Positions 2,992-18,362 of a DNA stretch of 64,000 nucleotides are shown here, piece after piece. The stretch is from the NCBI GenBank assembly GCA_028713415.1, contig JAQTOI010000001.1, forward strand, positions 18,651 through 82,650, given 5' to 3'. Under the pieces are notes generated by a model, which was not told where the DNA came from, searched no databases, and was given only the letters and a program-made list of their open reading frames with translations. Position numbers and translations under genes: made by a program. Every line of letters starts with the position of its first letter. Position 1 is the first letter of the stretch. This DNA comes from Candidatus Omnitrophota bacterium (lineage in GTDB: Bacteria > Omnitrophota > Gorgyraeia > Duberdicusellales > 4484-171).

Positions 2992-4122
2992 ATGGAGAAA
3001 GTCGACATCGTTGTAATCGGAGCAGGGGTGGTGGGGCTTGCGATAGCCGAGCGCTTGAGCAGAAAAAAGAAATCCATTTATCTCCTTGAACGCCATAGTT
3101 CATTTGGCAGAGAAACCAGCTCGCGCAATAGCGAAGTAATCCATGCGGGGATTTATTACCCTTCGGGGTCGCTTAAGGCTAAGCTTTGCGTAGAGGGCAA
3201 TAGCCTACTTTATGAAATCTGCGCTAAAGGAAATATTCCCCATAAAAGGATAGAAAAATTAATCGTGGCGACTAATCCAAGCGAAGAAGAAGAACTCATA
3301 CAGCTTCTAAATCGCGGCAAACGCAATGGTGCAAAGGGACTGGAGATTATCTCAAAAGAAGAAGTAAAAAAGCTTGAGCCGGATATAAAGGCGCGAGCAG
3401 CGCTTTATTCGCCCTCTACCGGTATAATTGACAGCCACAGCTTGATGAAATATTTCGAGGCTGCCTTTAAAGGAAAGGGCGGAGAAGTTGTTTATAACTG
3501 CCAAGTTAAGGGGCTATCTAAATCGCAAAGCGGCTATGAAGTTACCGTGGATGAGAGTACTGGCGAGACATTTAAATTCAGCGCAGCCACGGTAATTAAT
3601 AGTGCGGGTTTAGAGTCGGACACGGTCGCTTCTCTGCTTGGAATTGATATCGCCAAACAAAGTTATTCTTTAAAATACTGTAAAGGGCAATATTTTAGAG
3701 TGCAAAATCCTAAGAAATACGTACGAGTTTCAAGGCTGATCTACCCTGTGCCGCATGAGCGCGCATCAGGCCTGGGAGTCCATGCTACAAAAGATTTATC
3801 CGGAGGCTTACGTTTAGGCCCGGATGCCCGTTACGTAGAGAGAAGCGATTTTAATTATGATGTTGATGCGTCATGCCGCGGTGCTTTTCTTCAATCAGCA
3901 TTGCAACTTCTTCCTTTTTTAGAAGAAGATGATTTGGTGCCGGATACTTCCGGCATAAGGCCGAAATTGCAGGGAGAAGGCGAAGATTTCAGGGATTTTA
4001 TAATTCAGGAAGAAAGCGCTTTGGGTTTTAACGGTTTTATAAACCTTATCGGCATAGAGTCTCCGGGTTTAACCTGCGCACAGTCAATAGCGGAATATGT
4101 AGCGGACTTATTGCAAATTTAA
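2992..4122 (+). CDS. FAD-dependent oxidoreductase (LhgO / L-2-hydroxyglutarate oxidase-like DAO family)
   Basis: 376 aa. N-terminal Rossmann dinucleotide motif DIVVIGAGVVGLAIAERL. Followed by ...RNSEVIHAGIYYPSGSLKAKLCVEGN, typical of the LhgO/YgaF subfamily. Confidence 0.6.
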   Translation: MEKVDIVVIGAGVVGLAIAERLSRKKKSIYLLERHSSFGRETSSRNSEVIHAGIYYPSGSLKAKLCVEGNSLLYEICAKGNIPHKRIEKLIVATNPSEEEELIQLLNRGKRNGAKGLEIISKEEVKKLEPDIKARAALYSPSTGIIDSHSLMKYFEAAFKGKGGEVVYNCQVKGLSKSQSGYEVTVDESTGETFKFSAATVINSAGLESDTVASLLGIDIAKQSYSLKYCKGQYFRVQNPKKYVRVSRLIYPVPHERASGLGVHATKDLSGGLRLGPDARYVERSDFNYDVDASCRGAFLQSALQLLPFLEEDDLVPDTSGIRPKLQGEGEDFRDFIIQEESALGFNGFINLIGIESPGLTCAQSIAEYVADLLQI

Positions 4123-4859
4123 ATATCCTTTCGTTGATATCTCGTAAATCTTATTTTAAACAAACTACAAAGAGATTTTATCCCATCCCGCAGGGGTCTT
4201 ACTTTTGAGGTTTTCTTTTTATCGTGCCAGCGCACCGGCACTTCTTTTATTTTTAAGCCATGCTTAAAAATAAGGTAGATAAGTTCGCTGTCAAAACTCC
4301 AGTCATCACGCACAAGTTTAGAGAATAATAATTTCGCCGCCGCTTTCTTATACAATTTAAAGCCGCAATTATAGTCATTTACGGCTGTGCCTAAAATCAG
4401 CCTGGAAAGAAGAATATAGATATTCCCCAGAATAATTCTATAAAAGGGCTGGCGGGTTTCGATTATCGCTCCCGGGAGACGTCGCGAAGCAATAGCTATA
4501 TCGTAACCTTCTATGATTGCCGACATCAAGCCTTCTATCTGGTTTATGCGCGTTGAGTTATCCGCATCCATAAAAAGTATAAGCTCACCTTTCGCAGCCG
4601 ATACGCCTTCTTTTACAGAGTAACCCTTGCCGCGGTTGGGAGAATGTTCAAGCAAAGTAAAATGGGCGAATAACTTGCTTTCAAGAGCGGCAAGCGTGGC
4701 CGTTTCATCAAGTGAGCCGTCATTAACCACGATGATTTCGTAAGCATAGTTTTTATTTTTAAGGTATTGGGCAACATCCTGGAGCGTGAAAGCTATGTTG
4801 GCTCCTTCATTATAGGCAGGTATCACTATCGACAGATAAATATTATTTTCTCTCACCAT
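4119..4859 (-). CDS. GT2 polyprenyl-phosphate glycosyltransferase (dolichyl-phosphate mannose/glucose synthase-like)
   Basis: 246 aa, the only convincing minus-strand gene in the window. LSIVIPAYNEGANI...IIVVNDGSLDET...FMDADNS (DxD) are GT2 hallmarks. Convergent with the upstream + gene (4-bp overlap of stops) and divergent from 4946+. Confidence 0.75.
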   Translation of the reverse strand: MVRENNIYLSIVIPAYNEGANIAFTLQDVAQYLKNKNYAYEIIVVNDGSLDETATLAALESKLFAHFTLLEHSPNRGKGYSVKEGVSAAKGELILFMDADNSTRINQIEGLMSAIIEGYDIAIASRRLPGAIIETRQPFYRIILGNIYILLSRLILGTAVNDYNCGFKLYKKAAAKLLFSKLVRDDWSFDSELIYLIFKHGLKIKEVPVRWHDKKKTSKVRPLRDGIKSLCSLFKIRFTRYQRKDI

Positions 4860-4945: not shown

Positions 4946-5677
4946 ATGTTTCTATCAATAGTTATCCCGGCATACAACGAAGAAAATAGGCTCCTGCCTA
5001 CCTTAGAGAAGATATATTCCTATCTGGGCAGCAACAACTTTGATTGTGAGGTTATCGTTGTGGATGACGGTTCTTTGGATAACACAAAAGATACAGCCCT
5101 CAGGAGCCAGCTCAATAATGCAGGTAAGCTCACTGTATTGCAAAATGGACGTAACAGGGGAAAAGGATTCTCCGTAAAAAGGGGTATATTAGCTTCGCAA
5201 GGGGATTATATTTTATTCAGCGACGCCGACCTCTCAACGCCCATTGAAGAGTTTGAAAAATTATTTAAGGGCGTGAAGGAGGGGTTTGACATAGTTATCG
5301 GCTCTCGTGGCGTCTTTGAGTCGGACATCAGAGTTCATCAGCCTTGGCATAGAGAGAAAATGGGTAAGATTTTTAATTTCTTTATCAAGGCGTTTATTTT
5401 TAATAATTTTAGCGATACGCAGTGCGGTTTTAAGCTTTTTAAGGGTTCTATAGCGCGGGATATCGCATCTAGTACCGTAATAGAGGGGTTTTGTTTTGAC
5501 GTTGAGATGATCTATATTGCTAAAATGCGCCGCTATAAAATTAAAGAGATTGGAGTTATATGGAATAATTCTCCGCAAAGCAGGGTTAAGATATTCGGAA
5601 GCTCAATAGGTATGTTTTATGATTTATTAAGGATAAAGGCGTTACATAAAAACTATAGTGACAGCAAACCAGCATAG
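4946..5677 (+). CDS. GT2 polyprenyl-phosphate sugar synthase (CsbB/GtrB/DPM1-like)
   Basis: 243 aa. LSIVIPAYNEENRL...VIVVDDGSLDNT...FSDADLS (DxD). Immediately followed (stop/start TAGATG) by a YfhO-like GT-C protein. Confidence 0.75.
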   Translation: MFLSIVIPAYNEENRLLPTLEKIYSYLGSNNFDCEVIVVDDGSLDNTKDTALRSQLNNAGKLTVLQNGRNRGKGFSVKRGILASQGDYILFSDADLSTPIEEFEKLFKGVKEGFDIVIGSRGVFESDIRVHQPWHREKMGKIFNFFIKAFIFNNFSDTQCGFKLFKGSIARDIASSTVIEGFCFDVEMIYIAKMRRYKIKEIGVIWNNSPQSRVKIFGSSIGMFYDLLRIKALHKNYSDSKPA

Positions 5678-7873
5678 ATGCATTTTCTAAAAAAGTATCA
5701 CCCCATATTACTTATCTTCATTATCCTGATTTTTCTTTTTCCTCTTGTGACGCTTGAAAAAAGCTTCTTAGGCGGAGATAATTTTGTTCAATTCTACCCT
5801 TGGTTTAGCGCTTATTCGGAATCGATAAAAAATCTACAGTTTCCTTTCTGGACTCCTTATATACAAAGCGGCTTTCCTTTGATGGCAGAAGGCCAGGTAG
5901 GGGGATTTTATCCGTTAAATATCGTTTTATTTTTCCTTTTACCTTTCCAAATAGCCTATAATTATTCAATAATCATACATTTTTCACTCGCAGCATTGTT
6001 CATGTATTTTTATATGCGCCGCTTGCGCATTGGAGCTAACGGGGCGCTATTCGGTAGCCTCATATTCTGCTGCGGGAGCGCTTTTGCGGGATGTTTCTAT
6101 AATATGATTACGCTAAGGACATTAGCCTGGTTTCCTTTAGTATTATTGCTGTTAGAAAAATATGCCGAAAGCAACCGCAAAAAATATTTAATCGGCGGCT
6201 CTTTAATTTTTGGTATGCAATTATTAGCCGGCTTTGTCCAGATGGCTTTATATAGCGGCTTATTCTATGGCCTCTATCATATTGTTAGATCGCGCCAAGA
6301 TAAAAAATCCTGGGCAAAAATAGGCTTAAATCTTTTTGTTCTGGCCTTTCTCGCCCTTATTCTTTATATTCCGCAATTTATTTTGAGTTGGGATTTCGTG
6401 CGTCAGTCAGTAAGAGCCCACAATGTTTCTTTGGGATTTGCTCTCTGGGGTTCATTTTCTCCGCTTGGATTTTTCGGAATGGTTTTTCCTTCAGCGACCC
6501 GGCTTATAAGAGGAGAGTTTTATGTCGGTATTATTGGGTTTATTTTTGCTGTATTCGCCATTTTTTATATAAAAGATACAAAGGAAAAAAGATTTACGCC
6601 TCTTTTTGCAATGTTAATCGCAGCGCTATTGCTGGCGCTGGGTAAATACAACCCTTTTTATACGCTTTTGGTCAAAATCTTCAAATTATATAGTTTTAGA
6701 AACCCTGCAAAATTTTTATTTTTTGGATTATTTTCTCTGTCGGTTTTTTCCGGACTGGGGTATTCTTTTCTGAATGATCCTTTAAGGTATTTCACAAAAA
6801 AAACCGCGGATTTTTTATTGAAATTATTTGCGTCAGCCGTCTTCTTATTTTTCATATTTAAATTAATTCTTCATGTTTTTAAAGCCCCGCTGCTTAAATC
6901 AGGGTATTGGTACGTTGAGAGATTCATTGCCAGCCAGCCTTATCACCGCTACAGCTTAGAATTCTACATGCATAAGGTACAAGCCATATATACTGCTTTT
7001 TCTTTATCATTGTCTATCTCAAGTAAAGGGATAATTTTTTCTTTTTTATTAATCCTTGCGGGAATGTTATTCTGTCACTGGTGTATTGTTAAACCAGGAA
7101 GAATCCGCAAATTAAAAGCAATTTGGTTTACGATTGCAATTTGCGATCTTTTCTTATATGGCTATTACATAAGCGGATTTGGGAAAAATATCATTTCATT
7201 CAATGTATTAGAGCCGCAATATAGAAATATTTACAGTATTATCAAAAGCGACAGAGATAGCTTCAGGATTTATCCTTTCAATCTTTATTCGCGCCAGCTG
7301 CCTAATTGGTGCCTGCCAAACGCAAATATGCTTTATAAGCTGGAAAGCATCGCCTCCTATACCCCGTTAATAGATTATAACTACTGGTTAAAAACAAAAG
7401 GTCTGGGCGTAATCGATGATTCGTTAGGCTTCTTACCCGCGAAAAAAGATGTTTTTACATCAGGCGCCGGTTTACTTAAAGCATTAAACGTCAAATATGT
7501 GATTACGAGCGATAAATTAGACAATGATAAATTAGAGTTAGTTGCAGAGGAAGGAATAATGCGCCTTTATAAGCTCAAAAATTATTATCCACGTTTCTTT
7601 TTTTCCGAAAATTTTGAAAATCCTACGCCCAGCGTAAGAATAACCAGTAAACTGGTTCGTTCGGGGGTTACGTCTTCTGAATTTGAAATTAACAGCGATA
7701 TCGCCGGTTACTTTATATGGTCTCAGAGTTACTCCGAACAATGGGCTGTTTATGTGGATGAGAAAAAATCCAGGGTATTTAAGCCCTATGGCATTCTGCA
7801 GGCGGTTTTTTTACCTCCGGGTGAACACCGTATTAAATTTGTGTTTTATCCGTTGACATCTGTATGTAAATAG
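5678..7873 (+). CDS. YfhO-family membrane protein (GT-C fold, polyprenyl-P-sugar dependent glycosyltransferase-like)
   Basis: 731 aa, more than 12 TM. N-terminal FLGGDNFVQFYPWF...SGFPLMAEGQ block typical of YfhO. Large C-terminal soluble domain. Paired with the upstream GT2, as in CsbB/YfhO and GtcA-type systems. Confidence 0.6.
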   Translation: MHFLKKYHPILLIFIILIFLFPLVTLEKSFLGGDNFVQFYPWFSAYSESIKNLQFPFWTPYIQSGFPLMAEGQVGGFYPLNIVLFFLLPFQIAYNYSIIIHFSLAALFMYFYMRRLRIGANGALFGSLIFCCGSAFAGCFYNMITLRTLAWFPLVLLLLEKYAESNRKKYLIGGSLIFGMQLLAGFVQMALYSGLFYGLYHIVRSRQDKKSWAKIGLNLFVLAFLALILYIPQFILSWDFVRQSVRAHNVSLGFALWGSFSPLGFFGMVFPSATRLIRGEFYVGIIGFIFAVFAIFYIKDTKEKRFTPLFAMLIAALLLALGKYNPFYTLLVKIFKLYSFRNPAKFLFFGLFSLSVFSGLGYSFLNDPLRYFTKKTADFLLKLFASAVFLFFIFKLILHVFKAPLLKSGYWYVERFIASQPYHRYSLEFYMHKVQAIYTAFSLSLSISSKGIIFSFLLILAGMLFCHWCIVKPGRIRKLKAIWFTIAICDLFLYGYYISGFGKNIISFNVLEPQYRNIYSIIKSDRDSFRIYPFNLYSRQLPNWCLPNANMLYKLESIASYTPLIDYNYWLKTKGLGVIDDSLGFLPAKKDVFTSGAGLLKALNVKYVITSDKLDNDKLELVAEEGIMRLYKLKNYYPRFFFSENFENPTPSVRITSKLVRSGVTSSEFEINSDIAGYFIWSQSYSEQWAVYVDEKKSRVFKPYGILQAVFLPPGEHRIKFVFYPLTSVCK

Positions 7874-7935
7874 ATTATTCTTGTATAATATTATTGTCAT
7901 TTTCGGCATATTAATAATAGAGAATGGAGGAATAA

Positions 7936-10116
7936 ATGAAGAAAGTTTTGGTGACCGGCGGAGCCGGATATTTAGGCAGTGTTTTGTGTGAAAAACTATT
8001 AGAAAAATCATATAGCGTAAGATGTTTTGACAGGCTTTATTTCGGCCAAGAGCCCGTCAGGCATCTCATGAAAAACAAGAATTTTGAGCTTATCTGCGGA
8101 AATATCATCGACCTCGATAGCTATCCGTCCCTTCTTGAAGATATTGACGCAGTTGTGCATTTAGCGGGTATCGCAAATGATCCTACCGCGGAACTCGATC
8201 CTCAATTAACCTATAGGGTTAACTGCGACGCAAGCGTCAAACTTGCCGCATTGGCGAAGAGTAAAAATATACAACGTTTTATTTTTGCTTCAAGCTGCAG
8301 CGTTTACGGTAAAGGCCTGGCTGACGTGGTTAACGAAGATTCACCCATTAACCCTGTTTCGGTATACGCTGAGTCAAAGGCAAAAGCCGAAAAGGAAATA
8401 TTGTCATTGGCTGACCGTTCTTTTTCCCCTACGTCGTTGCGCCAGGCGACGCTTTACGGGATGTCGCCTCGCATGCGTTTTGATCTTGCCATTAATTTGA
8501 TGGTGCTACACGCGGCGACAAAAGGGAAAATTTTTATATGGGGCGGAGGGGACCAGTGGAGGCCTTTTCTCCATGTAGCCGATTCCGCGGAAGCGATGCT
8601 TCATTGCTTGATCGTTAATCCCGATAAGGTACGCGGTAAAATTTACAATGTAGGTTCCACCAAAGATAATTTTAAGATCATTGATTTAGCCAATCTAATT
8701 AAGGATATGATTAAGGGGACAACTTTGGATGTGATACCGGAAAATCCCGATAAACGCAGCTATTGCGTGAATTGCGACGCCATAGAAAAAGATTTAAAAT
8801 GGAAGCCCTCAATGAACATAAAAGATGCGGTTAAAGCTATAGGGGCTTTTTGTGCCTCGAAAAAAGCCCAGGAATTAGCAAGTGATACTTTCTATAATAT
8901 ACGAACAGTGCAAAAATTTGTTCGAACGCCGGCCATACGCGGCGGAGACCCCATGTGCCCCCAATTTCTTCCCTTTTCTGTTCCCAGTATTGGTAAAGAA
9001 GAGGAAGATGAAGTAATTGCAACGTTACGCTCTGGCTGGCTTACCACCGGCCCACGCGTAAAGAAACTCGAGGGAATGTTTGAAGAATATATTGGATGCA
9101 AGCATGCCGTATGCGTTAATTCATGTACCGCCGCCTTACATTTAAGCCTGGTTACTCTTGGTATTGAAGCGGGAGATGAGGTGATTACTTCTCCCATTAC
9201 TTGGCCGGCAACCGCTAATGTTATCGTGCATACCGGGGCAACGCCTGTTTTTGCAGACGTAGAGAAAGAAACCTTGAATATCGATCCTGAAAAGATAGAA
9301 GAAAAAATAACCAAAAAAACAAAAGCCATAATCCCCGTGCATATGGCAGGACAACCCTGCCGCATGGATGAGATAAGGAGAGTTGCTAGCAAACATAACC
9401 TTTATGTCATCGAAGATGCCGCGCACGCGATTGGCGCGCAATTTAAAGGAAAAAATATTGGAACTTTAAGTGATTTTACTTGTTTCAGCTTTTATCCCAT
9501 AAAGAATATGACTACTATTGAAGGGGGCCTGGTGGCTACCTCAAGCGAAAAATGGGCAGACTTGGTAAAAGTTTACAGCCTTCATGGCGTCAGTAAGGAT
9601 GCATGGAAGAGATACGATAGAAGCTTTAGGGGCAGTGCCGAAGTAATGTATCCGGGTTTTAAATACAACATGTCTGATGTGCAGGCGGCCTTAGGTTTGC
9701 ATCAATTACCGCGTTTGGATGGATTTATCAAGACACGGGAATTGATATCGCGCCAGTATGATGAAGCCTTTAAGGATATGGAAGACTTGATAGCTTTGCC
9801 CGCGCATATAAAAAATATAAAACACGCGCATCACCTCTATATAATCATGCTTGCAATAGAAAAGTTAAATATTTCGCGGGATGGATTTATCGAAGCGCTT
9901 AAATGCGAGAACGTGGGCGTAGGCATACATTTTAATTCTCTGCACCTGCAGCATTATTATCAAAAAAGATTTAAATTTAAAAAAGAAGATTTTCCGCAAT
10001 CCGCTTATCTTTCCGAAAGGATACTTTCCCTGCCGCTATATCCATCGATGACACAATATGACATAGAAACAGTGATTAAGGCAGTGAAGAAGCTAATTAG
10101 GTATTATAAAAAATGA
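7936..10116 (+). CDS. Bifunctional fusion: N-terminal NAD-dependent epimerase/dehydratase (extended SDR) + C-terminal DegT/DnrJ/EryC1/StrS PLP-dependent sugar aminotransferase
   Basis: 726 aa. Residues 1-~310: VLVTGGAGYLGSVLCEKLL (GxxGxxG) and YAESK catalytic motif. Residues ~340-726: FLPFSVPSIGKEEEDEVIATLRSGWLTTGP...AVCVNSCTAALHL...FSFYPIKNMTTIEGG (PLP-lysine block as in PseC/ArnB). RBS GGAGG upstream of the ATG. Confidence 0.75.
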   Translation: MKKVLVTGGAGYLGSVLCEKLLEKSYSVRCFDRLYFGQEPVRHLMKNKNFELICGNIIDLDSYPSLLEDIDAVVHLAGIANDPTAELDPQLTYRVNCDASVKLAALAKSKNIQRFIFASSCSVYGKGLADVVNEDSPINPVSVYAESKAKAEKEILSLADRSFSPTSLRQATLYGMSPRMRFDLAINLMVLHAATKGKIFIWGGGDQWRPFLHVADSAEAMLHCLIVNPDKVRGKIYNVGSTKDNFKIIDLANLIKDMIKGTTLDVIPENPDKRSYCVNCDAIEKDLKWKPSMNIKDAVKAIGAFCASKKAQELASDTFYNIRTVQKFVRTPAIRGGDPMCPQFLPFSVPSIGKEEEDEVIATLRSGWLTTGPRVKKLEGMFEEYIGCKHAVCVNSCTAALHLSLVTLGIEAGDEVITSPITWPATANVIVHTGATPVFADVEKETLNIDPEKIEEKITKKTKAIIPVHMAGQPCRMDEIRRVASKHNLYVIEDAAHAIGAQFKGKNIGTLSDFTCFSFYPIKNMTTIEGGLVATSSEKWADLVKVYSLHGVSKDAWKRYDRSFRGSAEVMYPGFKYNMSDVQAALGLHQLPRLDGFIKTRELISRQYDEAFKDMEDLIALPAHIKNIKHAHHLYIIMLAIEKLNISRDGFIEALKCENVGVGIHFNSLHLQHYYQKRFKFKKEDFPQSAYLSERILSLPLYPSMTQYDIETVIKAVKKLIRYYKK

Positions 10117-11828
10117 CGGATAAAAAAATTATTTTTTTGATTTTCGCCATCGGCTTTGTACTAAGGATTGTCGGCATTAATTTCGGCCTTCCATTTGCTT
10201 ATCACGATGACGAGCCGATTATAGTTAATTATGCGCTGGCTTATGCGAGCGGAGATTTCAATCCGCACGTTTTCAACATTAGCCCCTTTCTTTCATATAT
10301 CCTTTTTTTTATTTATGGAGCATTTTTTGTCATTGGCAGGCTGTTCGGAGCTTTTCATCAGATAAAGGATTTTGCCTACCTTTATCTTAATGATCCGACT
10401 TTTTTTTATCTTATCGGCCGAGTTGCGTATGGATTACTTTGCGGCTCGGCTTCTATTGTTGCGCTTTATGTTCTAGGTAAAAAATGTTTTGATAAATCTA
10501 CCGGGCTGCTTGCGGCATTTTTTCTTGCTGTCAATTTCCTTCATGTCCGAGATTCACATTATATTTATTTTGATATTCCACTCACTCTTTGCGTGATCAT
10601 TTTTTTTATCAAGGCTATTGATTTTTTTAAGCCAGTCCGTCTCAAGAATTATATTGCGTTGAGCCTATTACTTGGGCTAGCGATTTCAGTCAAGAATACA
10701 GGGTCTTTTCTGGTTTTTCCTTTTATGGCGGTAGTCATCTATAATTTTTTTATTTCTCGAGAGGTATCCTTAAGGATAAAATTTACGCGAATTTTAGTTT
10801 GCCCTGTTGTCGTGGGGAGCGCATTTTTCGCGGGAAATCCTTTCGCGTTCCTTGATTTTAAGGCTTTCTTCAGAAGCGGTTTGCATTTACCGGTAGAGGT
10901 CCCGCCCCCGTTCCATCATCTGCTTGTTTCACTCTTTGGAGGTTGCGGTATGGCTATGGTTTTGTTGGGCCTTGTGAGCATGGCAGTGATACTCGTTACG
11001 CGTAAAAATAAGCGCGCGTTGATTATTATCCTCTTTACGATTATTTATTACAGTGCACTCCATAGGTCAAGTCAGCCTGGCGAACGGCTTGTCATGCCTT
11101 TGGTTCCTTTTATCCTTCTGTTTGCTGCTTGGCTTTTTGTTCTGCTTGCACGTTCCTTGCGCAAGTATAAAATTATTTATGTTGTTATTCCAGCGCTGTT
11201 GGCCGTCCTTATTTTTCCTTCGCTGATACGAATCTATTACGCCAATAAGCTTTTTTTACGCCAAGATACACGGACGCAAGCTTATCATTGGATTAAAGCC
11301 AATATAGTTAAGAATTCGCGTATTGCTCTCGACGCTACGCAATCTTGTTTTCCGCGCTTGGAAAAGAATAAGGAACAGTTTAAAGAACGCGAAAAATATA
11401 TTTCTGTCACTTCTTTCCGAAAGCCACAGGGCGCCGATCAAATGAAAGCCCGGTTTATGCGGGATAACCCCTACTATCCCGCGATAACTTATTATCTTTT
11501 TTATTTAAGAGATGAGGCAACGGTCGGCAAGAAAGGATTTCTTACGATATATCCGGATATCCCTATTGCGTTTAATTCTCTGGGTTTACGAGATATCCAG
11601 TATGTCGTGCTTTCTCAGATTATATTTAAACCTAAATATGCGAATTTTATGGAGGAGTTAAAGCGTTCATATCGGCTTATCAAAGTATTCTCGCCTTATC
11701 GCCGCAGTATTCAGAGGAAAAAGCCAATCGAATTTGCCCCTATTCCGGCCGCAGCTTTTACTTTAGAAGAATTACGTGATAGAATTTCATACGGGCCGTA
11801 TATTGAAATATATGAGCGAATACAATAA
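10113..11828 (+). CDS. GT-C membrane glycosyltransferase, ArnT/PMT (GT39/GT83)-like
   Basis: 571 aa, multi-TM. First periplasmic loop carries the DE motif (AYHDDEPIIVNYALAYASGDF) typical of ArnT/PMT_2 family enzymes. 4-bp overlap with the upstream gene. Confidence 0.65.
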   Translation: MTDKKIIFLIFAIGFVLRIVGINFGLPFAYHDDEPIIVNYALAYASGDFNPHVFNISPFLSYILFFIYGAFFVIGRLFGAFHQIKDFAYLYLNDPTFFYLIGRVAYGLLCGSASIVALYVLGKKCFDKSTGLLAAFFLAVNFLHVRDSHYIYFDIPLTLCVIIFFIKAIDFFKPVRLKNYIALSLLLGLAISVKNTGSFLVFPFMAVVIYNFFISREVSLRIKFTRILVCPVVVGSAFFAGNPFAFLDFKAFFRSGLHLPVEVPPPFHHLLVSLFGGCGMAMVLLGLVSMAVILVTRKNKRALIIILFTIIYYSALHRSSQPGERLVMPLVPFILLFAAWLFVLLARSLRKYKIIYVVIPALLAVLIFPSLIRIYYANKLFLRQDTRTQAYHWIKANIVKNSRIALDATQSCFPRLEKNKEQFKEREKYISVTSFRKPQGADQMKARFMRDNPYYPAITYYLFYLRDEATVGKKGFLTIYPDIPIAFNSLGLRDIQYVVLSQIIFKPKYANFMEELKRSYRLIKVFSPYRRSIQRKKPIEFAPIPAAAFTLEELRDRISYGPYIEIYERIQ

Positions 11829-11830
11829 TC

Positions 11831-12613
11831 ATGGAAAAATTATCTCCGGTTTATTCTGTTGTCGTTCCTGTTTTTAATGAACAAGAAGTCCTCCCTGCGT
11901 TCTATGAGCGTCTGAAAAATACTTTGGATAATCTCGGACTATCGTATGAGATCGTTTTTGTCGATGATGGAAGCACCGATGGCTCATACTCAATACTTAA
12001 GAATTTTGCTCTCAATAATTCCGCGATACATGTGGTTAGTTTTAAAATGAATTTTGGACAACATCGGGCAGTAACTGCAGGATTGCGCGCCGCGCGCGGC
12101 GATTACGTTATTGCGCTTGACGCAGACCTTCAAAATCCTCCGGAAGAAATACCAAAGCTTATCATGAAAATGAAAGAAGGTTTCGATATGGTGGCGGGGG
12201 TACGGAAACTGCGCAAAGACACATTTGGTCGACGTTTCTCGTCACTGATAACGAATGCAGTGATTCGCCTGGTAACTGGTCTATCGATGAGCGACTATGG
12301 TTCAATGCTACGGATATTTAAGCGGGAAACTGCCTCTAAGCTTGCTCGTGTCTTCGAAAAAAACCAAGGCTATATTACGATGCTTGTTGCCAAAGTAACG
12401 CATCATGTAGGAGAGGTAGAGGTGGACCATGATCAGCGTTATGCCGGAACGTCAAAGTATACATTTAGAAAGCTTTTTGTGCTTTTTTTTAAAATTTTCT
12501 GCTACTATGATTGGTTTTCAAGATTTTTTATAGCGCGCGGGAACGAACCTCTCTACGTGATTGATAAGGAGATTGAATATGGAAAGGAAATTATCAAAAT
12601 TGCTCGTCCTTGA
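11831..12613 (+). CDS. GT2, ArnC-like undecaprenyl-phosphate aminosugar transferase
   Basis: 260 aa. YSVVVPVFNEQEVLPAFYERL...YEIVFVDDGSTDGS...ALDADLQNPPEEIPKL closely follows the ArnC/GtrB pattern. Confidence 0.7.
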   Translation: MEKLSPVYSVVVPVFNEQEVLPAFYERLKNTLDNLGLSYEIVFVDDGSTDGSYSILKNFALNNSAIHVVSFKMNFGQHRAVTAGLRAARGDYVIALDADLQNPPEEIPKLIMKMKEGFDMVAGVRKLRKDTFGRRFSSLITNAVIRLVTGLSMSDYGSMLRIFKRETASKLARVFEKNQGYITMLVAKVTHHVGEVEVDHDQRYAGTSKYTFRKLFVLFFKIFCYYDWFSRFFIARGNEPLYVIDKEIEYGKEIIKIARP

Positions 12614-13334
12614 TGAATGGGATTCACGTTTCTTCAAAAAACGCATAGGGAAGCTTAAAGTAACGCATACGCAGAAGCATCTTGTTTCTTTTTCTGAACT
12701 TTTAGCGGTACGCGCGCGCGCAAAGCTTGAAAATATGAATTTTGTTACTGTGCGTTTTGACAAACCAGATGCCCGTCTTGAAAAAATAGCCAGGCGTGGC
12801 GGATTGCGTAAGTGCGGCGGAGGAGTAAATTTTATCTATAAAATTCCGGTAAATTTTAAAAATGCACCCAGTGTTGACTTTAAAATAAAAGAGTGCACCA
12901 GCCAACAGATTTCTTCCGCGTGCCTGCTCGCAAAAGACGCTTTTCGGTTAAGTTTCCTTTACTCTTGCGGTTTTGCTCCTCAGAATGTCATCGATAGGTA
13001 TCACCAAGTATGGGTTCGTAACTTGTACGCTAACAAAAACAGTTGCCTATTAGTTGCCAGCCGCCAGGGTAATGTTTTAGGTTTTCTCGTCTCATCTGCC
13101 GACATTCAGGGCCACCGCGGCAAAATGATGCTTATGGCGGTTAATAAACGATATCGAGGCATGGGCATTGGGAAAAGGCTAGTGGAGGGATTTATTGCTT
13201 GGGCAGCTGCGCATAAAATATCACGCATTGCGGTACGCACACAGGAAGATAATTACGCCGCGATTGCGGTGTATAATAAATTGAAATTTCGTTTACTCTA
13301 TAGCGACAGCGATTACTATATGAGATTGAAGTGA
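12579..13334 (+). CDS. GNAT family N-acetyltransferase
   Basis: ORF track starts at a TTG (12561). ATG at 12579 preceded by AAGGAG (12566-12571) is the more likely start. C-terminal GNAT core RYRGMGIGKRLVEGFIAWA...IAVRTQEDNYAAIAVYNKLKF. Overlaps the upstream GT2 by about 35 bp. Confidence 0.6.
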   Translation: MERKLSKLLVLDEWDSRFFKKRIGKLKVTHTQKHLVSFSELLAVRARAKLENMNFVTVRFDKPDARLEKIARRGGLRKCGGGVNFIYKIPVNFKNAPSVDFKIKECTSQQISSACLLAKDAFRLSFLYSCGFAPQNVIDRYHQVWVRNLYANKNSCLLVASRQGNVLGFLVSSADIQGHRGKMMLMAVNKRYRGMGIGKRLVEGFIAWAAAHKISRIAVRTQEDNYAAIAVYNKLKFRLLYSDSDYYMRLK

Positions 13335-15004
13335 AAAAAAATTTACCAGTAGTTTTTTTGCTGGCTACTTTTGTTATTATTGTTTTTACCTCCGTTAACA
13401 CAAAATCTCCGATTTGTGATGAAGCCGGGCACCATATCGCTGCCGGATATTCTTTTTTAAAAACCGGAGATTTTCGTATGAATCCGGCCACTCCGCCTTT
13501 AACTCGGATGCTTATGGCTGCTCCGCTTCTTCCCCTGAATCTAAAGCTGCCTCTTAATCATCCTTCCTGGCAGAATATCGATAGCACTGTTTTTAACTAT
13601 CAATTTCTTTATGTGCTTAACCAAAACCCGCAGCGTATTATTTTTTTAAGCAGGCTCCCAATGATAGCGCTTTCTGCACTCCTGGGCATTCTGATATTTA
13701 TTTGGGCACAAAAGATATATGGTTACAAGGCAGGTTTGTTTGCCCTGTTTCTATATGTATTTTCACCTACTGTATTGGCAAATGCCGGCTTAGGAATGGC
13801 AGATATGGGTTCTGCTTTCTTCATGTCTCTTGCAATATATCAATATTGGAAATTTAATTCTGCCACACGCAGAAGGACCATGTATCTGTTATTGACGGGG
13901 ATATGCTCTGGATTAGCTTTTTCTGCTAAAATAAATGCTTTTTTGCTGCTGCCGTTGTTTTTTATATGGGCGCTATACCGAGTTTTTCTTGCGCAAAACC
14001 GAAAACAAGAACTTCACCGTCAAACCATTTTATTGCTGATTATCTTTGCTATAAGTTTTATAACGCTTTGGGCTACCTATGGTTTTGAATTCAAACCCTT
14101 GCTGAAAAATGCGCCGGATATTCCTGAAAAAATAGCGTATATCAATAAGCTCTCAAAAATGCTTCCGTTTGTTAATCAGGAAGAAACTGCGCACCGGCTT
14201 GTTGATTTCGCTCAAAATACCCCCATACCTCTAAGCGCTTATATTATTTCTTGTCTCGGTATCATTAATCAAGTAGTTAGAGGGGAGCAGGCAGTTTTCT
14301 TTTTTGGCAACAGTTATCTGCAGGGCTCTAAAATATACTACTTTATCGTATTTCTCATCAAAACTCCGTTGCCTTTTCTGGTGCTGATAGCAATTTCTCT
14401 GCTTTTGCTGATTTTAAAAAAACGCACGCCAGTCGATAAACTAACAAATTCGTTTATTAGCCTCCCTATTATTTTTTTCTTTTTAAGCGCTTCGTTTTCT
14501 AAACTGCAGGGCGGACTGCGTTATCTTTTGCCGATGTATCCGTTCCTATTGATTTGGCTTTCGGATATCGTAAATGTCCGGTTAAAAAATAAAAAAATCT
14601 ATGCGCCTGCCTTTTTTACGGCTATTTCTATATGGTATGCGGCTTGTGCATTTCTTACCTACCCAAACTATTTAGCCTACTTTAATGAACTCGTCGGCGG
14701 GATGAACGGCTTTGGCTATAAAATTACCCACGATCTCGATTGGGGCCAAGATCTTCCCGCTTTATCCGAATATCTGCGCAAGGAAAAAATTGAAACCGTA
14801 AGGCTTCTATACTTTGGTACTGCAGAACCGGCAGCCTACGGCATAACGTACACTGCGTTAAGTTCTCAGGATTACCTTATGCCAGGCAAAAATGTTTACG
14901 CAATTAGTGCCCGCTATTTGCGTGTTCTGCCATGGACCGCTAACGCCACGCCAACTGCTAAGCCGGGATATTCAATATTTGTCTACGATTTTCGCAATAG
15001 CTAG
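13331..15004 (+). CDS. GT-C membrane glycosyltransferase, ArnT/PMT (GT39/GT83)-like (second copy)
   Basis: 557 aa, multi-TM. DE motif in the first loop (SPICDEAGHHIAAGYSFLKTGDF). GTG start overlapping the upstream stop (GTGA). Confidence 0.65.
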   Translation: MKKNLPVVFLLATFVIIVFTSVNTKSPICDEAGHHIAAGYSFLKTGDFRMNPATPPLTRMLMAAPLLPLNLKLPLNHPSWQNIDSTVFNYQFLYVLNQNPQRIIFLSRLPMIALSALLGILIFIWAQKIYGYKAGLFALFLYVFSPTVLANAGLGMADMGSAFFMSLAIYQYWKFNSATRRRTMYLLLTGICSGLAFSAKINAFLLLPLFFIWALYRVFLAQNRKQELHRQTILLLIIFAISFITLWATYGFEFKPLLKNAPDIPEKIAYINKLSKMLPFVNQEETAHRLVDFAQNTPIPLSAYIISCLGIINQVVRGEQAVFFFGNSYLQGSKIYYFIVFLIKTPLPFLVLIAISLLLLILKKRTPVDKLTNSFISLPIIFFFLSASFSKLQGGLRYLLPMYPFLLIWLSDIVNVRLKNKKIYAPAFFTAISIWYAACAFLTYPNYLAYFNELVGGMNGFGYKITHDLDWGQDLPALSEYLRKEKIETVRLLYFGTAEPAAYGITYTALSSQDYLMPGKNVYAISARYLRVLPWTANATPTAKPGYSIFVYDFRNS

Positions 15005-15053: not shown

Positions 15054-15081
15054 TTGACAAGCGTATGCCCGCCGCTATAAT
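15054..15081 (+). promoter_or_regulatory. Sigma70-type promoter for the small HTH gene. -35 TTGACA (15054-15059), 16-bp spacer, -10 TATAAT (15076-15081). Followed by RBS GAGGAG (15092-15097) and ATG at 15101.
   Basis: Read directly. The -10 box lies inside the ORF-track start (15065). This argues that the real start is the downstream ATG at 15101, which has a strong SD. Confidence 0.5.
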
Positions 15082-15100
15082 AAGCAAAAAAGAGGAGATA

Positions 15101-15340
15101 ATGGAAATTAAGCCAAACGAAGTCTATACTACCGAAGAAACCCAAGCATTACTTAAGATAAGCCCTTCTACGACCATGCGCCTTATTAAAAAAGGTGTTA
15201 TTCGTACCGCCAAAGTAGGAAAACAATATCGTATATTGGGAAAAGAGTTGCTTCGTCTTCTTTCGCCGACTCTGGAAGATAAGGTAGGGAAAGTCTACAA
15301 TAAAGGTAGGCATTGGTTACACAAAGATGTAGATGGATGA
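15101..15340 (+). CDS. Small helix-turn-helix DNA-binding protein, excisionase/MerR-like (HTH_17) family
   Basis: 80 aa from 15101 (the ORF track gives 15065, 91 aa). ...VYTTEETQALLKISPSTTMRLIKKGVIRTAKVGKQYRI... matches the excisionase-family DNA-binding domain pattern (T.EEAA.LLGVS..T.YRLI..G.LPA.KVGR.WRI). Confidence 0.55.
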   Translation: MEIKPNEVYTTEETQALLKISPSTTMRLIKKGVIRTAKVGKQYRILGKELLRLLSPTLEDKVGKVYNKGRHWLHKDVDG

Positions 15341-17502: not shown

Positions 17503-18362
17503 ATAAAATTGCTCTTGGATCAGCGCAGTTTGGAGCACATTACGGAATCAATAATCGCAGAGGAAAGATACCGGCAAACGAGGTCTTTGAAATCCTTGAT
17601 TTCGCTTCAGCCTCACAGATAGATTTACTCGACACTGCTTTTGAATACGGCGAGAGCGAAAACGTTATCGGCTATTACGAGAGAGCGCACGGTTGCCCTT
17701 TTAAAATAGTATCTAAGCTGCCGCAGTGTGCGGGCAGAGAAGTTAAAGACCTCTTCGATGCATCGCTTACGAGGCTACATGCAAAAAGTCTTTACGGGTA
17801 TCTCATACATAATTTTAAATATTTCAATGAGCATCCTGATATCTGGCGCATTTTGGAGATATTAAAGGCAGAGGGAAAAATTGAAAAGATAGGTTTCTCG
17901 ATATATTATCCAACGGAACTTGAGACACTTTTTAAGCGGAACATCAGATTCGATATGATACAGTTCCCTTACAGCATTTTAGACCAAAGGTTTACAGCGT
18001 ACTTTTCTGAACTTAAAAAGAGGGGAATTGAAATACACGTCCGCTCGGTCTTTCTTCAGGGATTGATATTTAAAGAAGCAGCTTTCTTAAATGAGAAGTT
18101 CTCAAAAATAAAGGATACAATAACGCAGATCAGATCTTTGGCCAAGGATAAGGGTATTTCGCTTGTTGCGCTCTGTGTCAATTTTGCCGCACTTAATGAA
18201 TTTATAGATAAGATTATAATCGGGGTAGATAGCCTTGGGAACCTAAAAGAAATAGTTTCATCGCGCAATTATACCAGTAACGTTGAAGAGGTCTTAAGCC
18301 AGCTTGCTACTTTGCGTGAGGATGACGAAACAATGATAGTGCCTGCAAAATGGAGGATTTAA
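17499..18362 (+). CDS. Aldo/keto reductase family oxidoreductase
   Basis: 287 aa. IALGSAQFG...LDTAFEYGESENVIG is the AKR signature. Confidence 0.6.
   Translation: MNKIALGSAQFGAHYGINNRRGKIPANEVFEILDFASASQIDLLDTAFEYGESENVIGYYERAHGCPFKIVSKLPQCAGREVKDLFDASLTRLHAKSLYGYLIHNFKYFNEHPDIWRILEILKAEGKIEKIGFSIYYPTELETLFKRNIRFDMIQFPYSILDQRFTAYFSELKKRGIEIHVRSVFLQGLIFKEAAFLNEKFSKIKDTITQIRSLAKDKGISLVALCVNFAALNEFIDKIIIGVDSLGNLKEIVSSRNYTSNVEEVLSQLATLREDDETMIVPAKWRI

What the first reader, a model, noticed from the sequence alone, without database searches (positions are those of the whole stretch)
7936..15004. Arn-like lipid-linked aminosugar module built around a fused SDR-aminotransferase protein
A single 726-aa ORF fuses an extended-SDR epimerase/dehydratase domain to a DegT/ArnB-type PLP aminotransferase. 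It is followed immediately by an ArnT/PMT-like GT-C, an ArnC-like GT2 (polyprenyl-P aminosugar synthase), a GNAT acetyltransferase and a second ArnT-like GT-C. The logic parallels the lipid A Ara4N pathway (ArnA-CTD, ArnB, ArnC, ArnT). The domain fusion differs (SDR fused to the aminotransferase rather than to a formyltransferase), and a GNAT takes the place of the formyl group donor. The predicted product is an N-acetylated 4-aminosugar carried on a polyprenyl phosphate and transferred in the periplasm by two GT-C enzymes to lipid A, a glycan or a protein.
Basis: partly seen in the sequence, partly recalled or inferred. Interest (0 to 1): 0.7.

Follow-up and report, generated by a model that had tools for sequence, protein, structure and literature searches.

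The report
Fused sugar oxidase-aminotransferase glycosylation operon
A five-gene operon in an uncultured Omnitrophota bacterium probably makes an N-acetylated 4-amino sugar, loads it on a lipid carrier and attaches it outside the cytoplasmic membrane; it starts with a real, widespread, uncharacterised fusion enzyme that looks like a C4 sugar oxidase joined to the aminotransferase that consumes its product.

Summary
Window 7936-15004 holds five tightly packed + strand genes:
- a 726-aa extended-SDR/DegT aminotransferase fusion
- a GT-C
- a short ArnC-like GT2
- a WecD-like GNAT
- a second GT-C

The fusion is not an artefact. More than 120 full-length homologues (50-72% identity) occur in Omnitrophota, Patescibacteria, Planctomycetota, Chloroflexota, Thermodesulfobacteriota and DPANN archaea. 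Split and reverse-order versions also exist.

The Arn analogy holds only in part. The aminotransferase is 44% identical to ArnB and the GT2 is 40% identical to ArnC. The SDR, however, is neither an ArnA/UXS-type decarboxylase nor a 4,6-dehydratase. It lacks their catalytic Glu (motif ASSCSVYG). Its closest characterised relative is Cj1427, a C4 dehydrogenase that releases a 4-keto sugar and re-oxidises bound NADH with alpha-ketoglutarate.

The two GT-Cs are generic GT-C/PMT_2 enzymes, no closer to ArnT than to OST or PMT. There is no deacylase or flippase gene in the operon.

An L-2-hydroxyglutarate-oxidase-like gene lies nearby here and next to the pair in two other phyla. This hints at a closed cycle linking the aminotransferase's alpha-ketoglutarate to L-2-hydroxyglutarate.

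The sugar and the acceptor remain unknown. This is a new variant of a known kind.

The parts
7853..7881 (+). Promoter-like site (TTGACA-17-TATTCT) upstream of the operon. A GGAGG ribosome-binding site lies at 7927-7931.
   Evidence: This is a consensus match only.
7936..8850 (+). Fusion protein, residues 1-305: extended SDR domain of the Cj1427 type, a putative nucleotide-sugar C4 dehydrogenase. Motifs: GGAGYLG, ASSCSVYG, YAESK, SPRMRFDL, DKRSY.
   Evidence: Pfam Epimerase 6e-48. PDB 6vo6 (Cj1427) 4e-44, next hit 6e-29. 35% identity to Cj1427. Motif alignment.
8851..8961 (+). Fusion protein, residues 306-342: conserved, partly helical linker (YNIRT...PA..GGDP).
   Evidence: Alignments. AlphaFold2 block-mean pLDDT 83-91 across this stretch; whole-model pTM 0.87.
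8962..10116 (+). Fusion protein, residues 343-726: DegT/ArnB-like PLP aminotransferase domain. The PLP lysine is K523.
   Evidence: Pfam 3e-129. ArnB 44% identity with K523 aligned to K188. Foldseek TM 0.96 to ArnB. NCBIfam ArnB 411 bits, below the cut-off of 631.
10113..11828 (+). GT-C glycosyltransferase 1 (PMT_2/GT39-like, 571 aa). The D33-E34 motif in the first external loop is invariant. A C-terminal alpha/beta domain follows the membrane part.
11831..12613 (+). ArnC-like GT2 (260 aa), a putative polyprenyl-phosphate aminosugar synthase. It lacks the C-terminal transmembrane helices of ArnC.
   Evidence: 40% identity to E. coli ArnC over 225 aa, with DADLQNPPEEIP conserved. PDB ArnC 5e-49. 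NCBIfam 196 bits, below the cut-off of 529, covering profile positions 8-222 of 316.
12579..13334 (+). WecD-like two-domain GNAT N-acetyltransferase (251 aa from the ATG at 12579; an alternative TTG start lies at 12561).
   Evidence: Pfam Acetyltransf_1 5e-17. NCBIfam PRK10975 2.8e-22 over profile positions 7-220 of 232, below cut-off. The gene call from the ATG appears.
13331..15004 (+). GT-C glycosyltransferase 2 (PMT/PMT_2, 557 aa). It has a D-E pair in the first loop (SPICDEAGHH).
   Evidence: Pfam PMT 5e-12. Sequence. Conserved in synteny in L034, L081 and L173.
2992..4122 (+). Possible accessory gene: an FAD oxidoreductase of the DAO family, related to L-2-hydroxyglutarate oxidase (376 aa).
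   Evidence: NCBIfam PRK11728 253.6 bits (cut-off 299; profile positions 2-268 of 389). PDB 3dme 2e-78 and Drosophila L2HGDH 3e-44. Homologues lie next to the SDR/aminotransferase pair in L004 and L069 and in the same island in L173.
4946..7873 (+). Neighbouring second donor/transferase pair: GT2 (4946-5677) abutting a YfhO-type GT-C (5678-7873).
   Evidence: Pfam. Syntenic in L034 and L081.
4119..4859 (-). Third small GT2 (DPM-synthase/AglJ-like), convergent with the DAO gene.
   Evidence: The DAO/GT2(-) pair also occurs in L173 and L174.

Best explanation
The operon makes and uses a lipid-linked 4-acetamido-4-deoxy sugar.

Proposed steps:
1. The N-terminal SDR domain of the fusion oxidises C4 of a nucleotide sugar to the 4-keto sugar, without 4,6-dehydration or decarboxylation, as its relative Cj1427 does. 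The sugar is probably UDP-linked; its identity is unknown.
2. The fused ArnB-like PLP domain transaminates the 4-keto sugar with glutamate. This gives the 4-amino sugar and alpha-ketoglutarate.
3. The WecD-like GNAT N-acetylates the amine.
4. The ArnC-like GT2 transfers the sugar to polyprenyl phosphate.
5. After flipping, one or both GT-C enzymes transfer it to an unknown periplasmic acceptor (LPS, another glycan, or protein).

Inferred refinement: as in Cj1427 and P. aeruginosa WbpB, the SDR keeps its NAD(H) bound and is re-oxidised by alpha-ketoglutarate. The net reaction of the fusion is then sugar-OH + Glu -> sugar-NH2 + L-2-hydroxyglutarate. The nearby LhgO-like flavoprotein would return L-2-hydroxyglutarate to alpha-ketoglutarate.

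Shown: domain identities, catalytic residues, and conservation of the fusion and the operon.
Inferred: every chemical step, the sugar, the flipping and the acceptor.
For: - Domains and motifs.
- The SDR groups with Cj1427. It is the best PDB hit by 15 orders of magnitude and is 35% identical. It shares the short G-x-SPRMR-x-DL loop and the DKR-x-Y motif only with Cj1427. It has Ser, not Glu, where RmlB, ArnA and a UXS-like SDR have Glu. C121 and S122 are invariant in 56 homologues.
- Cj1427 is a C4 oxidase that needs alpha-ketoglutarate (PMC10680097, PMC9978623).
- WbpB uses alpha-ketoglutarate as NADH oxidant upstream of the aminotransferase WbpE (PMC10622841).
- Functional coupling of SDR and aminotransferase is supported by several arrangements: more than 120 SDR-AT fusions, a reverse AT-SDR fusion P0257, and adjacent separate genes in at least 13 loci and in Haloterrigena turkmenica.
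- An N-acyltransferase sits next to the fusion in several phyla. A GNAT was found in 6 of 12 long fused loci. L004's weaker GNAT fell below that threshold but is a WecD-like hit, which makes 7. A formyltransferase takes its place in Woesearchaeota.
- An ArnC-like GT2 and/or a PMT_2 GT-C lies next to the fusion in Omnitrophota, a MAG labelled Patescibacteria, FCPU426, Planctomycetota and Woesearchaeota.
- GT2-PMT_2 fusion proteins exist among the GT-C homologues.
- A bona fide LhgO (535 bits, cut-off 299) sits directly upstream of the ArnC-like GT2, GNAT and fusion in L004. A near-cut-off one (280.5 bits) lies beside the split pair in L069.
- Such a gene is near the coupled pair in 3 of 23 loci of at least 8 kb, against 0 of 83 aminotransferase-only loci (counts plus the window). 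By my own arithmetic the one-sided Fisher p is about 0.009, or 0.04 without the window.
Against: - No member of the fusion family has been characterised, and I found none in the paper library.
- 35% identity to Cj1427 does not prove product release or use of alpha-ketoglutarate. GalE-type epimerases have a similar Ser/Thr at the +2 position.
- The window's DAO protein scores below the LhgO cut-off. It also resembles type-2 glycerol-3-phosphate oxidase.
- In Omnitrophota the same DAO gene occurs in a GT-C island without the fusion (L174). It is absent within 10 kb of the fusion in the fully syntenic L081 and L034.
- In Chloroflexota and in the PGT-linked split loci, the fusion or pair feeds a Wzx/GT4 or PglC-like context with no GT2 or GT-C. 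The link from fusion to GT2/GT-C is therefore not universal.
- No flippase gene is in the operon.
- The GT2 lacks the transmembrane helices of ArnC.
Confidence: 0.5

Rival explanations
1. A true Arn-type pathway. The SDR oxidatively decarboxylates UDP-GlcA to the UDP-4-keto-pentose. The ArnB-like domain then makes UDP-Ara4N, which is N-acetylated, loaded on polyprenyl phosphate by the ArnC-like GT2 and transferred by the GT-Cs. A variant reaches the same 4-keto-pentose by C4 oxidation of UDP-xylose or UDP-arabinose.
For: - ArnB is clearly the closest solved relative of the aminotransferase: 333 bits against 230 for the next family, and TM 0.96.
- ArnC is the closest solved relative of the GT2.
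- A formyltransferase accompanies the fusion in Woesearchaeota.
- A 4-keto-glucuronate is a beta-keto acid that decarboxylates easily (general chemistry).
Against: - The SDR is 23% identical to the ArnA C-terminal domain and lacks Glu434, with S433 replaced by Cys.
- UXS scores 1e-24 against 4e-44 for Cj1427.
- A real UXS/ArnA-type SDR (ASTSEVYG) does occur next to a related aminotransferase in L040. Nature uses that type when decarboxylation is wanted.
- No Ugd or UXS gene was found among the window ORFs that were scanned. Not every ORF was scanned.
- All Arn scores are below equivalog cut-offs.
- Related stand-alone aminotransferases of about 50% identity sit beside PglF-type dehydratases. 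The aminotransferase clade therefore does not fix the substrate.
Confidence: 0.18
2. The SDR is a non-canonical 4,6-dehydratase. The product would then be a 4-acetamido-4,6-dideoxy hexose (Fuc4NAc, viosamine or bacillosamine type), carried on polyprenyl phosphate.
For: - The GNAT resembles WecD, which acts on a 4-amino-4,6-dideoxy sugar.
- Split versions sit with PglC-like phosphoglycosyltransferases and a GNAT, like the bacillosamine genes.
- An invariant Cys121 could in principle act as an acid/base (inference).
Against: - There is no Asp/Glu pair after the catalytic Ser/Thr. RmlB has TDE and the window's LegB-like SDR has SSE.
- dTDP-glucose dehydratase models score only 102 bits against a cut-off of 365.
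- The closest characterised relative does not dehydrate.
Confidence: 0.08
3. The genes are neighbours but not one pathway. The fusion and the GNAT would supply a nucleotide sugar to cytoplasmic glycosyltransferases of the surrounding Wzx/Wzy-type island. The GT2/GT-C genes would carry a different, ordinary sugar (Glc, GlcNAc or Man), as in Gtr or CsbB/YfhO systems.
For: - In Chloroflexota the GNAT and fusion sit with Wzx and GT4 genes, with no GT-C nearby.
- Split pairs sit with PglC-like transferases.
- The window holds three GT2/GT-C sets, two phosphoglycosyltransferases and two Wzy-like genes.
- L174 has the GT-C block without the fusion.
Against: - Overlapping stop and start codons tie the fusion to GT-C 1, and the GNAT to GT-C 2.
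- The order fusion, GT-C, GT2, GNAT, GT-C is kept in L034, L081 and L173.
- An ArnC-like GT2 lies next to the GNAT and fusion in the unrelated FCPU426 locus and near the fusion in Planctomycetota.
- The GT2 is much closer to the aminosugar enzyme ArnC than to GtrB or DPMS.
Confidence: 0.2

Closest known systems
E. coli/Salmonella Arn (Pmr) pathway: ArnA, ArnB, ArnC, ArnD, ArnT, ArnE/F
   Same: - Same order of logic: make a 4-keto nucleotide sugar, transaminate with glutamate, N-acylate, transfer to undecaprenyl phosphate with a GT2, then transfer outside the cytoplasm with a GT-C.
- Aminotransferase 44% identical to ArnB, with the PLP lysine aligned.
- GT2 40% identical to ArnC.
   Different: - The SDR is not of the ArnA/UXS type and has no catalytic Glu.
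- The SDR is fused to the aminotransferase, not to a formyltransferase.
- The acyl group is acetyl from a GNAT.
- There is no ArnD-like deacylase, so the amine would stay blocked and uncharged.
- There is no ArnE/F.
- The GT2 lacks the transmembrane helices.
- The GT-Cs are PMT_2/GT39-like with a D-E motif and show no sequence similarity to ArnT.
[quoted passage not shown]
   Same: - Closest characterised relative of the SDR domain (4e-44; 35% identity).
- Shared subfamily loop and motifs.
- It releases a 4-keto sugar without dehydration and uses alpha-ketoglutarate as oxidant.
   Different: - Cj1427 is a stand-alone enzyme that feeds epimerases and reductases, not an aminotransferase.
- Its motif is TNS rather than S-C-S.
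- Its substrate is a GDP-heptose. Here the partners (ArnB-, ArnC- and WecD-like) suggest a UDP or dTDP sugar, and the scanned window ORFs include no heptose-activation gene.
- A true Cj1427 orthologue (367 bits) exists separately in the related island L173.
WbpB/WbpE (and GnnA/GnnB-type) oxidase-aminotransferase pairs
   Same: A dehydrogenase and a DegT-family aminotransferase act in sequence. [quoted passage not shown] Alpha-ketoglutarate is the aminotransferase's own by-product.
   Different: - WbpB belongs to a different oxidoreductase family (my own knowledge, not tested here) and acts at C3 of UDP-GlcNAcA.
- The two proteins are separate.
- The product enters O-antigen through cytoplasmic steps, not through a GT2/GT-C route.
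Three-component periplasmic glycosylation systems (GtrA/GtrB/Gtr-specific GT-C; CsbB/YfhO)
   Same: A small GT2 makes a polyprenyl-phosphate monosaccharide, and a GT-C transfers it outside the cytoplasm. The window holds such a GT2/YfhO pair directly upstream.
   Different: Those systems use common sugars (Glc, GlcNAc) taken from the general pool, and they carry a GtrA-type flippase. Here a dedicated sugar-modifying module is built into the operon and no flippase gene is seen.

Membership tests
Arn lipid A Ara4N pathway | ArnA C-terminal-type UDP-GlcA oxidative decarboxylase (Thr-Tyr-Lys plus Ser433/Glu434) | tested here: not met
   23% identity. T432/S433/E434 align with S120/C121/S122. The NCBIfam ArnA model scores 43 bits against a cut-off of 777.
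Arn lipid A Ara4N pathway | ArnB equivalog aminotransferase | tested here: inconclusive
   It is the best match of all families and 44% identical, with K188 aligned. It scores 411 bits, below the cut-off of 631.
Arn lipid A Ara4N pathway | ArnC equivalog with C-terminal transmembrane helices | tested here: not met
   196 bits, below the cut-off of 529. The alignment stops at profile position 222 of 316 and the protein is 260 aa. The catalytic domain is 40% identical.
Arn lipid A Ara4N pathway | ArnT (GT83) transferase | tested here: not met
Arn lipid A Ara4N pathway | ArnD deformylase and ArnE/F flippase genes | tested here: not met
   The operon 7936-15004 is fully occupied by the five genes, and no other ORF of 80 aa or more fits between them. 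None of the flanking genes that were scanned matches a deacylase or a small flippase.
Cj1427-type nucleotide-sugar C4 dehydrogenases (extended SDR) | Extended-SDR fold with GxxGxxG and a Ser/Thr-Tyr-Lys triad | tested here: met
Cj1427-type nucleotide-sugar C4 dehydrogenases (extended SDR) | Closer to Cj1427 than to epimerases, dehydratases or decarboxylases, with shared subfamily indels and motifs | tested here: met
   4e-44, against 6e-29 or weaker for all other solved SDRs. The shared short SPRMR-x-DL loop and the DKR-x-Y motif appear.
Cj1427-type nucleotide-sugar C4 dehydrogenases (extended SDR) | Tightly bound NAD(H) re-oxidised by alpha-ketoglutarate, giving L-2-hydroxyglutarate (ping-pong mechanism) | not testable with these tools
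   Only indirect evidence: a fused aminotransferase that produces alpha-ketoglutarate, and LhgO-like genes nearby in the window, L004, L069 and L173.
DegT/DnrJ/EryC1 sugar aminotransferases | Fold-type I PLP enzyme with the Schiff-base lysine | tested here: met
   Pfam 3e-129. K523 is invariant. TM 0.96 to ArnB.
GT-C glycosyltransferases using polyprenyl-phosphate sugars (PMT_2/GT39-like) | Multi-span GT-C fold with an acidic motif in the first external loop | tested here: met
WecD-type nucleotide-sugar 4-amine N-acetyltransferases | Two-domain GNAT matching WecD over its whole length | tested here: inconclusive
   PRK10975 scores 2.8e-22 and covers profile positions 7-220 of 232, but 79.7 bits is below the cut-off of 219. 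The L004 neighbour gives the same result.

The most novel reading that the evidence does not exclude
The fusion is a self-contained 'hydroxyl-for-amine swap' enzyme. A Cj1427-type SDR with permanently bound NAD(H) oxidises C4 of a common, non-deoxy nucleotide sugar. The fused aminotransferase aminates the ketone. The alpha-ketoglutarate just released is reduced in the SDR site to L-2-hydroxyglutarate. No free cofactor turns over, and the product is a 4-amino-4-deoxy (not 6-deoxy, not pentose) sugar not yet described in lipid-linked form. An LhgO-like oxidase salvages the L-2-hydroxyglutarate. This would define a widespread route to new surface sugars in Omnitrophota, CPR bacteria, Planctomycetota, Chloroflexota and DPANN archaea.
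Probability: 0.33. Interest if true: 0.7.

Novelty: new variant of a known kind. Interest (0 to 1): 0.55.

Why it matters
- The fusion family is large. More than 120 full-length clusters at 90% identity were listed. The SDR subfamily has 2,289 clusters at 50% identity with E of 1e-30 or better. It spans many poorly known phyla, yet I found no characterised member.
- If the SDR works like Cj1427, this is a second, independent case of an oxidase whose NADH is recycled by the alpha-ketoglutarate that its partner aminotransferase produces. Here the coupling is fixed by gene fusion in both orders. It would also give a metabolic reason for L-2-hydroxyglutarate oxidase genes inside glycan clusters.
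- It predicts a new lipid-linked N-acyl 4-aminosugar on the envelopes of uncultured bacteria and archaea.
- It corrects automatic 'ArnT-like' and 'dTDP-4-amino-4,6-dideoxygalactose transaminase/epimerase' labels.
- A cultured organism carries the split pair: Haloterrigena turkmenica DSM 5511, plasmid pHTUR04. The idea can therefore be tested directly.

Tried and rejected
- An iterative HMM for GT-C proteins, seeded with the window GT-Cs, YfhO and ArnT, drifted. It hit 66 of 83 control loci, so its counts were discarded. GT-C neighbours were taken from precomputed Pfam calls instead.
- My hydrophobicity count suggested that the 130-190-aa N-terminal extension of the split SDRs was transmembrane. 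Pfam on representatives showed CBS domains instead, and a CoA_binding_3 domain in one. The 'PglF-like membrane anchor' idea was dropped.
- The two primary Cj1427 papers (PMC7509852, PMC7500870) are not held. Cj1427 properties are therefore cited from PMC10680097 and PMC9978623.
- Literature searches for a characterised SDR-aminotransferase fusion, or for a C4-dehydrogenase/2-hydroxyglutarate link, found nothing.
- The afdb50 fold library was unavailable.
- I tested whether the DAO gene is specifically tied to Cj1427-type SDRs:
  - L175 (WOR-1) has SDRs next to the DAO gene, but they are HldD-like or of another type, not Cj1427-like.
  - L174 has the DAO gene without the fusion.
  - The link is therefore suggestive only.
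- The Bacillus mycoides plasmid hits are ordinary PseB/dehydratase/PseC clusters, not this pair.
- I looked among the scanned window ORFs for Ugd/UXS genes that would support a UDP-GlcA route and found none.
- The sugar's identity (hexose, HexNAc or pentose; UDP or GDP) could not be resolved from sequence.

Full report
**Observation**

The region 7936-15004 contains five + strand ORFs exactly as described. Pfam assigns them as follows:

| ORF | Assignment |
|---|---|
| 7936-10116 (726 aa) | Epimerase (extended SDR) on residues 4-240, 6e-48; DegT_DnrJ_EryC1 on residues 351-717, 3e-129 |
| 10113-11828 | PMT_2/PMT |
| 11831-12613 | Glycos_transf_2 |
| 12561/12579-13334 | GNAT |
| 13331-15004 | PMT/PMT_2 |

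Stop and start codons overlap or abut. A GGAGG ribosome-binding site and a promoter-like site precede the first gene. A perfect sigma-70 consensus follows the last gene. The five genes therefore read as one operon. The organism is a Candidatus Omnitrophota MAG. The fusion is NCBI protein MDD5194066.1, named 'bifunctional SDR family oxidoreductase/aminotransferase'.

**Is the fusion real?**

Yes.
- A search of 5.8 billion proteins listed 120 hits, nearly all at 100% coverage and about 725 aa. Identities were 50-72% for all but the identical protein itself. They come from Omnitrophota, Patescibacteria, Planctomycetota, Thermodesulfobacteriota, Chloroflexota, Pacearchaeota and Woesearchaeota.
- An identical protein is on record from a Logan assembly of run SRR22315509. 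I could not establish whether that assembly is independent of the NCBI MAG.
- In a 56-sequence alignment the SDR Tyr144, the PLP Lys523 and the linker motif are conserved, and K148 is at least 90% conserved.
- K523 aligns with ArnB K188.
- AlphaFold2 gives pLDDT 92 and pTM 0.87 for the whole chain.
- No solved structure covers both domains.
- The two activities are also linked in other ways. There is a reverse AT-SDR fusion (P0257). There are adjacent separate genes in at least 13 loci and on plasmid pHTUR04 of the cultured archaeon Haloterrigena turkmenica.

**What kind of SDR is it?**

It carries the signature of neither.
- Against solved structures, the SDR domain's best hit is 6VO6 at 4e-44. 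The next hit is 6e-29, human UXS is 1e-24 and GalE about 1e-16.
- 6VO6 is Cj1427 of Campylobacter jejuni (my identification of the entry from memory; the sequence is labelled only 'putative sugar-nucleotide epimerase/dehydratase'). Identity to it is 35%.
- An alignment with references shows the residues after the catalytic Ser/Thr:

| Protein | Motif |
|---|---|
| Fusion family | S-C-S (ASSCSVYG) |
| Cj1427 | T-N-S |
| GalE | S-A-T |
| RmlB | T-D-E |
| ArnA | T-S-E |
| UXS-like SDR from L040 | T-S-E |

- The Glu used by dehydratases and decarboxylases is absent. C121 and S122 are invariant in the family.
- The fusion family and Cj1427 alone share a short G-x-SPRMR-x-DL loop and a DKR-x-Y motif.
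- Identity to the ArnA C-terminal domain is 23%.
[quoted passage not shown] The titles of its primary papers call it a 'unique ping-pong dehydrogenase'.
- P. aeruginosa WbpB likewise uses alpha-ketoglutarate as its NADH oxidant, upstream of the aminotransferase WbpE (PMC10622841).

**The other proteins**

- *Aminotransferase domain.* It is closest to ArnB: 1mdo 3e-98, 44% identity, Foldseek TM 0.96. It scores below the ArnB equivalog cut-off (411 against 631 bits). Stand-alone relatives of about 50% identity sit next to PglF-type dehydratases, next to a UXS-type SDR, or next to this SDR type. The clade therefore does not fix the substrate.
- *GT2.* It is 40% identical to E. coli ArnC over the catalytic domain. 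It matches solved ArnC structures far better than GtrB or DPMS (5e-49, 9e-29 and 4e-19). It is only 260 aa and lacks ArnC's C-terminal membrane helices. Relatives in L004 and L082 are full length.
- *GNAT.* It matches the WecD model over its whole length, below cut-off.
- *GT-Cs.* Both pass Pfam PMT/PMT_2 cut-offs. They have no BLASTP similarity to ArnT or to each other and no PDB sequence hit.
  - It has an invariant D33-E34 pair in the first loop.
  - 'ArnT-like' is thus true only at the level of fold class.

**Context elsewhere**

| Locus | Lineage | Arrangement |
|---|---|---|
| L081, L173, L034 | Omnitrophota-like metagenome contigs; a MAG labelled Patescibacteria | Full order kept: fusion, GT-C, GT2, GNAT, GT-C |
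| L004 | Candidate division FCPU426 | LhgO, ArnC-like GT2, WecD-like GNAT, fusion, back to back |
| L082 | Planctomycetota | Fusion next to a PMT_2 GT-C and an ArnC-like GT2 |
| L083 | Woesearchaeota | PMT_2 GT-C, a formyltransferase, then the fusion |
| L086 | Chloroflexota | Wzx, GNAT, fusion; no GT-C |
| Several split-pair loci | Various | PglC-like transferase and/or a GNAT beside the pair |

The constant core is therefore oxidase plus aminotransferase, usually with an N-acyltransferase. The GT2/GT-C route is one of several outlets, and it is the one used here. GT2-PMT_2 fusion proteins among the GT-C 1 homologues support the GT2/GT-C partnership.

**The 2-hydroxyglutarate lead**

- Window ORF 2992-4122 is a DAO-family flavoprotein. 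Its best curated match is L-2-hydroxyglutarate oxidase: 253.6 bits against a cut-off of 299, covering about two thirds of the profile. Drosophila L2HGDH scores 3e-44.
- In L004 the gene directly upstream of the ArnC-like GT2, GNAT and fusion is a clear LhgO (535 bits). In L069 a near-cut-off LhgO (280.5 bits) lies beside the split pair.
- In L173 the same DAO type shares a 21-kb stretch with the fusion module and with a true Cj1427 orthologue flanked by HddA/HddC-like genes.
- Among loci of at least 8 kb, such a gene was near 2 of 22 coupled loci, or 3 of 23 with the window. It was near 0 of 83 aminotransferase-only loci. My arithmetic gives a one-sided Fisher p of about 0.04, or 0.009 with the window.
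- Against this:
  - L081 and L034 lack the gene within 10 kb.
  - L174 has the DAO gene with GT-Cs but no fusion.
  - In L175 its SDR neighbours are not Cj1427-like.
  - The protein family is very common in Omnitrophota.
- The lead is real but not proven.

**Most likely mechanism**

1. C4 oxidation of a nucleotide sugar. The sugar is probably UDP-linked, judging by the ArnB-, ArnC- and WecD-like partners.
2. Transamination with glutamate.
3. N-acetylation.
4. Transfer to polyprenyl phosphate.
5. Flipping by an unidentified flippase.
6. Transfer by one or both GT-Cs to an unknown acceptor.

If the SDR behaves like Cj1427, the fusion's net reaction is sugar-OH + Glu -> sugar-NH2 + L-2-hydroxyglutarate. 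This is redox-neutral and needs no free cofactor.

The operon has no deacylase, so the sugar would stay N-acetylated. The role would then be glycan decoration rather than the charge change that Arn gives lipid A.

The window is one large glycan island. It holds:
- two phosphoglycosyltransferases
- two Wzy-like genes
- a pseudaminic-acid-type cluster
- a third PMT_2 GT-C
- a GT87
- a GT9 heptosyltransferase-family gene, a family that includes LPS-core enzymes (my own knowledge)

The acceptor could be LPS, another glycan or a protein.

**Verdict**

- The system works like Arn in outline, but it is not a member of the Arn family. Its first enzyme is of a different, Cj1427-like kind.
- It is a new variant of a known kind. 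The fusion family is large and uncharacterised, and the mechanistic hypothesis is testable.

Noticed in passing
window 15365-26740: A pseudaminic-acid-type cluster. PseB and PseC score above NCBIfam cut-offs. There are also NeuB, CMP-sugar synthetase, PIG-L and GNAT genes. Unusual extras are a B12-binding radical SAM enzyme (19154-20581), a methyltransferase-like ORF (20578-21531), an aminotransferase-like ORF (21559-22869), an aldo/keto reductase and a formyltransferase-like gene. These suggest a modified nonulosonic acid. The two ORFs at 20578-22869 were named by eye from their sequence, not by a family search.
   Followed up: partly
window 15054-15340: A small HTH_17 gene is preceded by a 12/12 sigma-70 consensus promoter. 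It sits between the GT-C module and the Pse cluster. The same small gene follows the GT-C block in L081 and L174, and lies about 4 kb downstream of it in L034.
   Followed up: partly
L173:658-1635 (Logan ERR15087771 contig, Omnitrophota-like): A true Cj1427 orthologue (367 bits to the 6VO6 sequence) sits a few kb from HddA/HddC-like GDP-heptose genes. It lies in the same island as the LhgO-like DAO gene and the fusion module.
   Followed up: partly
L176:7010-11191 (Haloterrigena turkmenica DSM 5511 plasmid pHTUR04, NC_013747.1): A cultured haloarchaeon carries the split pair: the aminotransferase, then an SDR with an N-terminal extension and the family motifs FIFASTCSVYG and SPRMRFDL. A dicarboxylate/amino-acid:cation symporter follows directly. 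This is a possible experimental system.
   Followed up: partly
L083:12185-13552 and L088:7483-8922: A PRK07208-type FAD protein, with N-terminal similarity to UDP-galactopyranose mutase, lies next to or near the fusion in a Woesearchaeota locus and in another lineage. It may be a pyranose/furanose mutase acting on the product.
   Followed up: no
L040:9983-12098 (Methanotrichaceae MAG): A UXS/ArnA-type SDR (ASTSEVYG) lies directly upstream of a related aminotransferase. This is a candidate genuine archaeal ArnA-C-terminal-domain/ArnB-like pair, and a useful contrast to the fusion.
   Followed up: partly
proteins P0252, P0253, P0259, P0306, P0332, P0287 (SDR subfamily representatives): The Cj1427-like SDR subfamily occurs with many partners: GNAT-CBS-SDR, CBS-SDR (apparently the commonest form, judged from protein lengths), CBS-SDR-methyltransferase, CBS-SDR-cytidylyltransferase, SDR-HD and CoA_binding_3-SDR.
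   Followed up: partly
window 44165-45883, 53275-54237, 54243-55469: A third PMT_2 GT-C with a D-E loop motif, a GT9 (heptosyltransferase-family) gene and a GT87 gene lie in the same island. The island also has a second phosphoglycosyltransferase (48204-49607) and a second Wzy-like gene (50379-51689).
   Followed up: no
window 26749-28479 and 36385-38022: Two long ORFs (576 and 545 aa) inside the glycan island have no family match. The first has no Pfam hit on record. The second has no Pfam or NCBIfam match.
   Followed up: no
L069:11171-11854 (Gemmatimonadetes MAG): A PIG-L/BshB1-like N-acetyl-sugar deacetylase sits between the aminotransferase and the split SDR, next to the LhgO-like gene. 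It hints at an N-acetylhexosamine substrate in that lineage.
   Followed up: no
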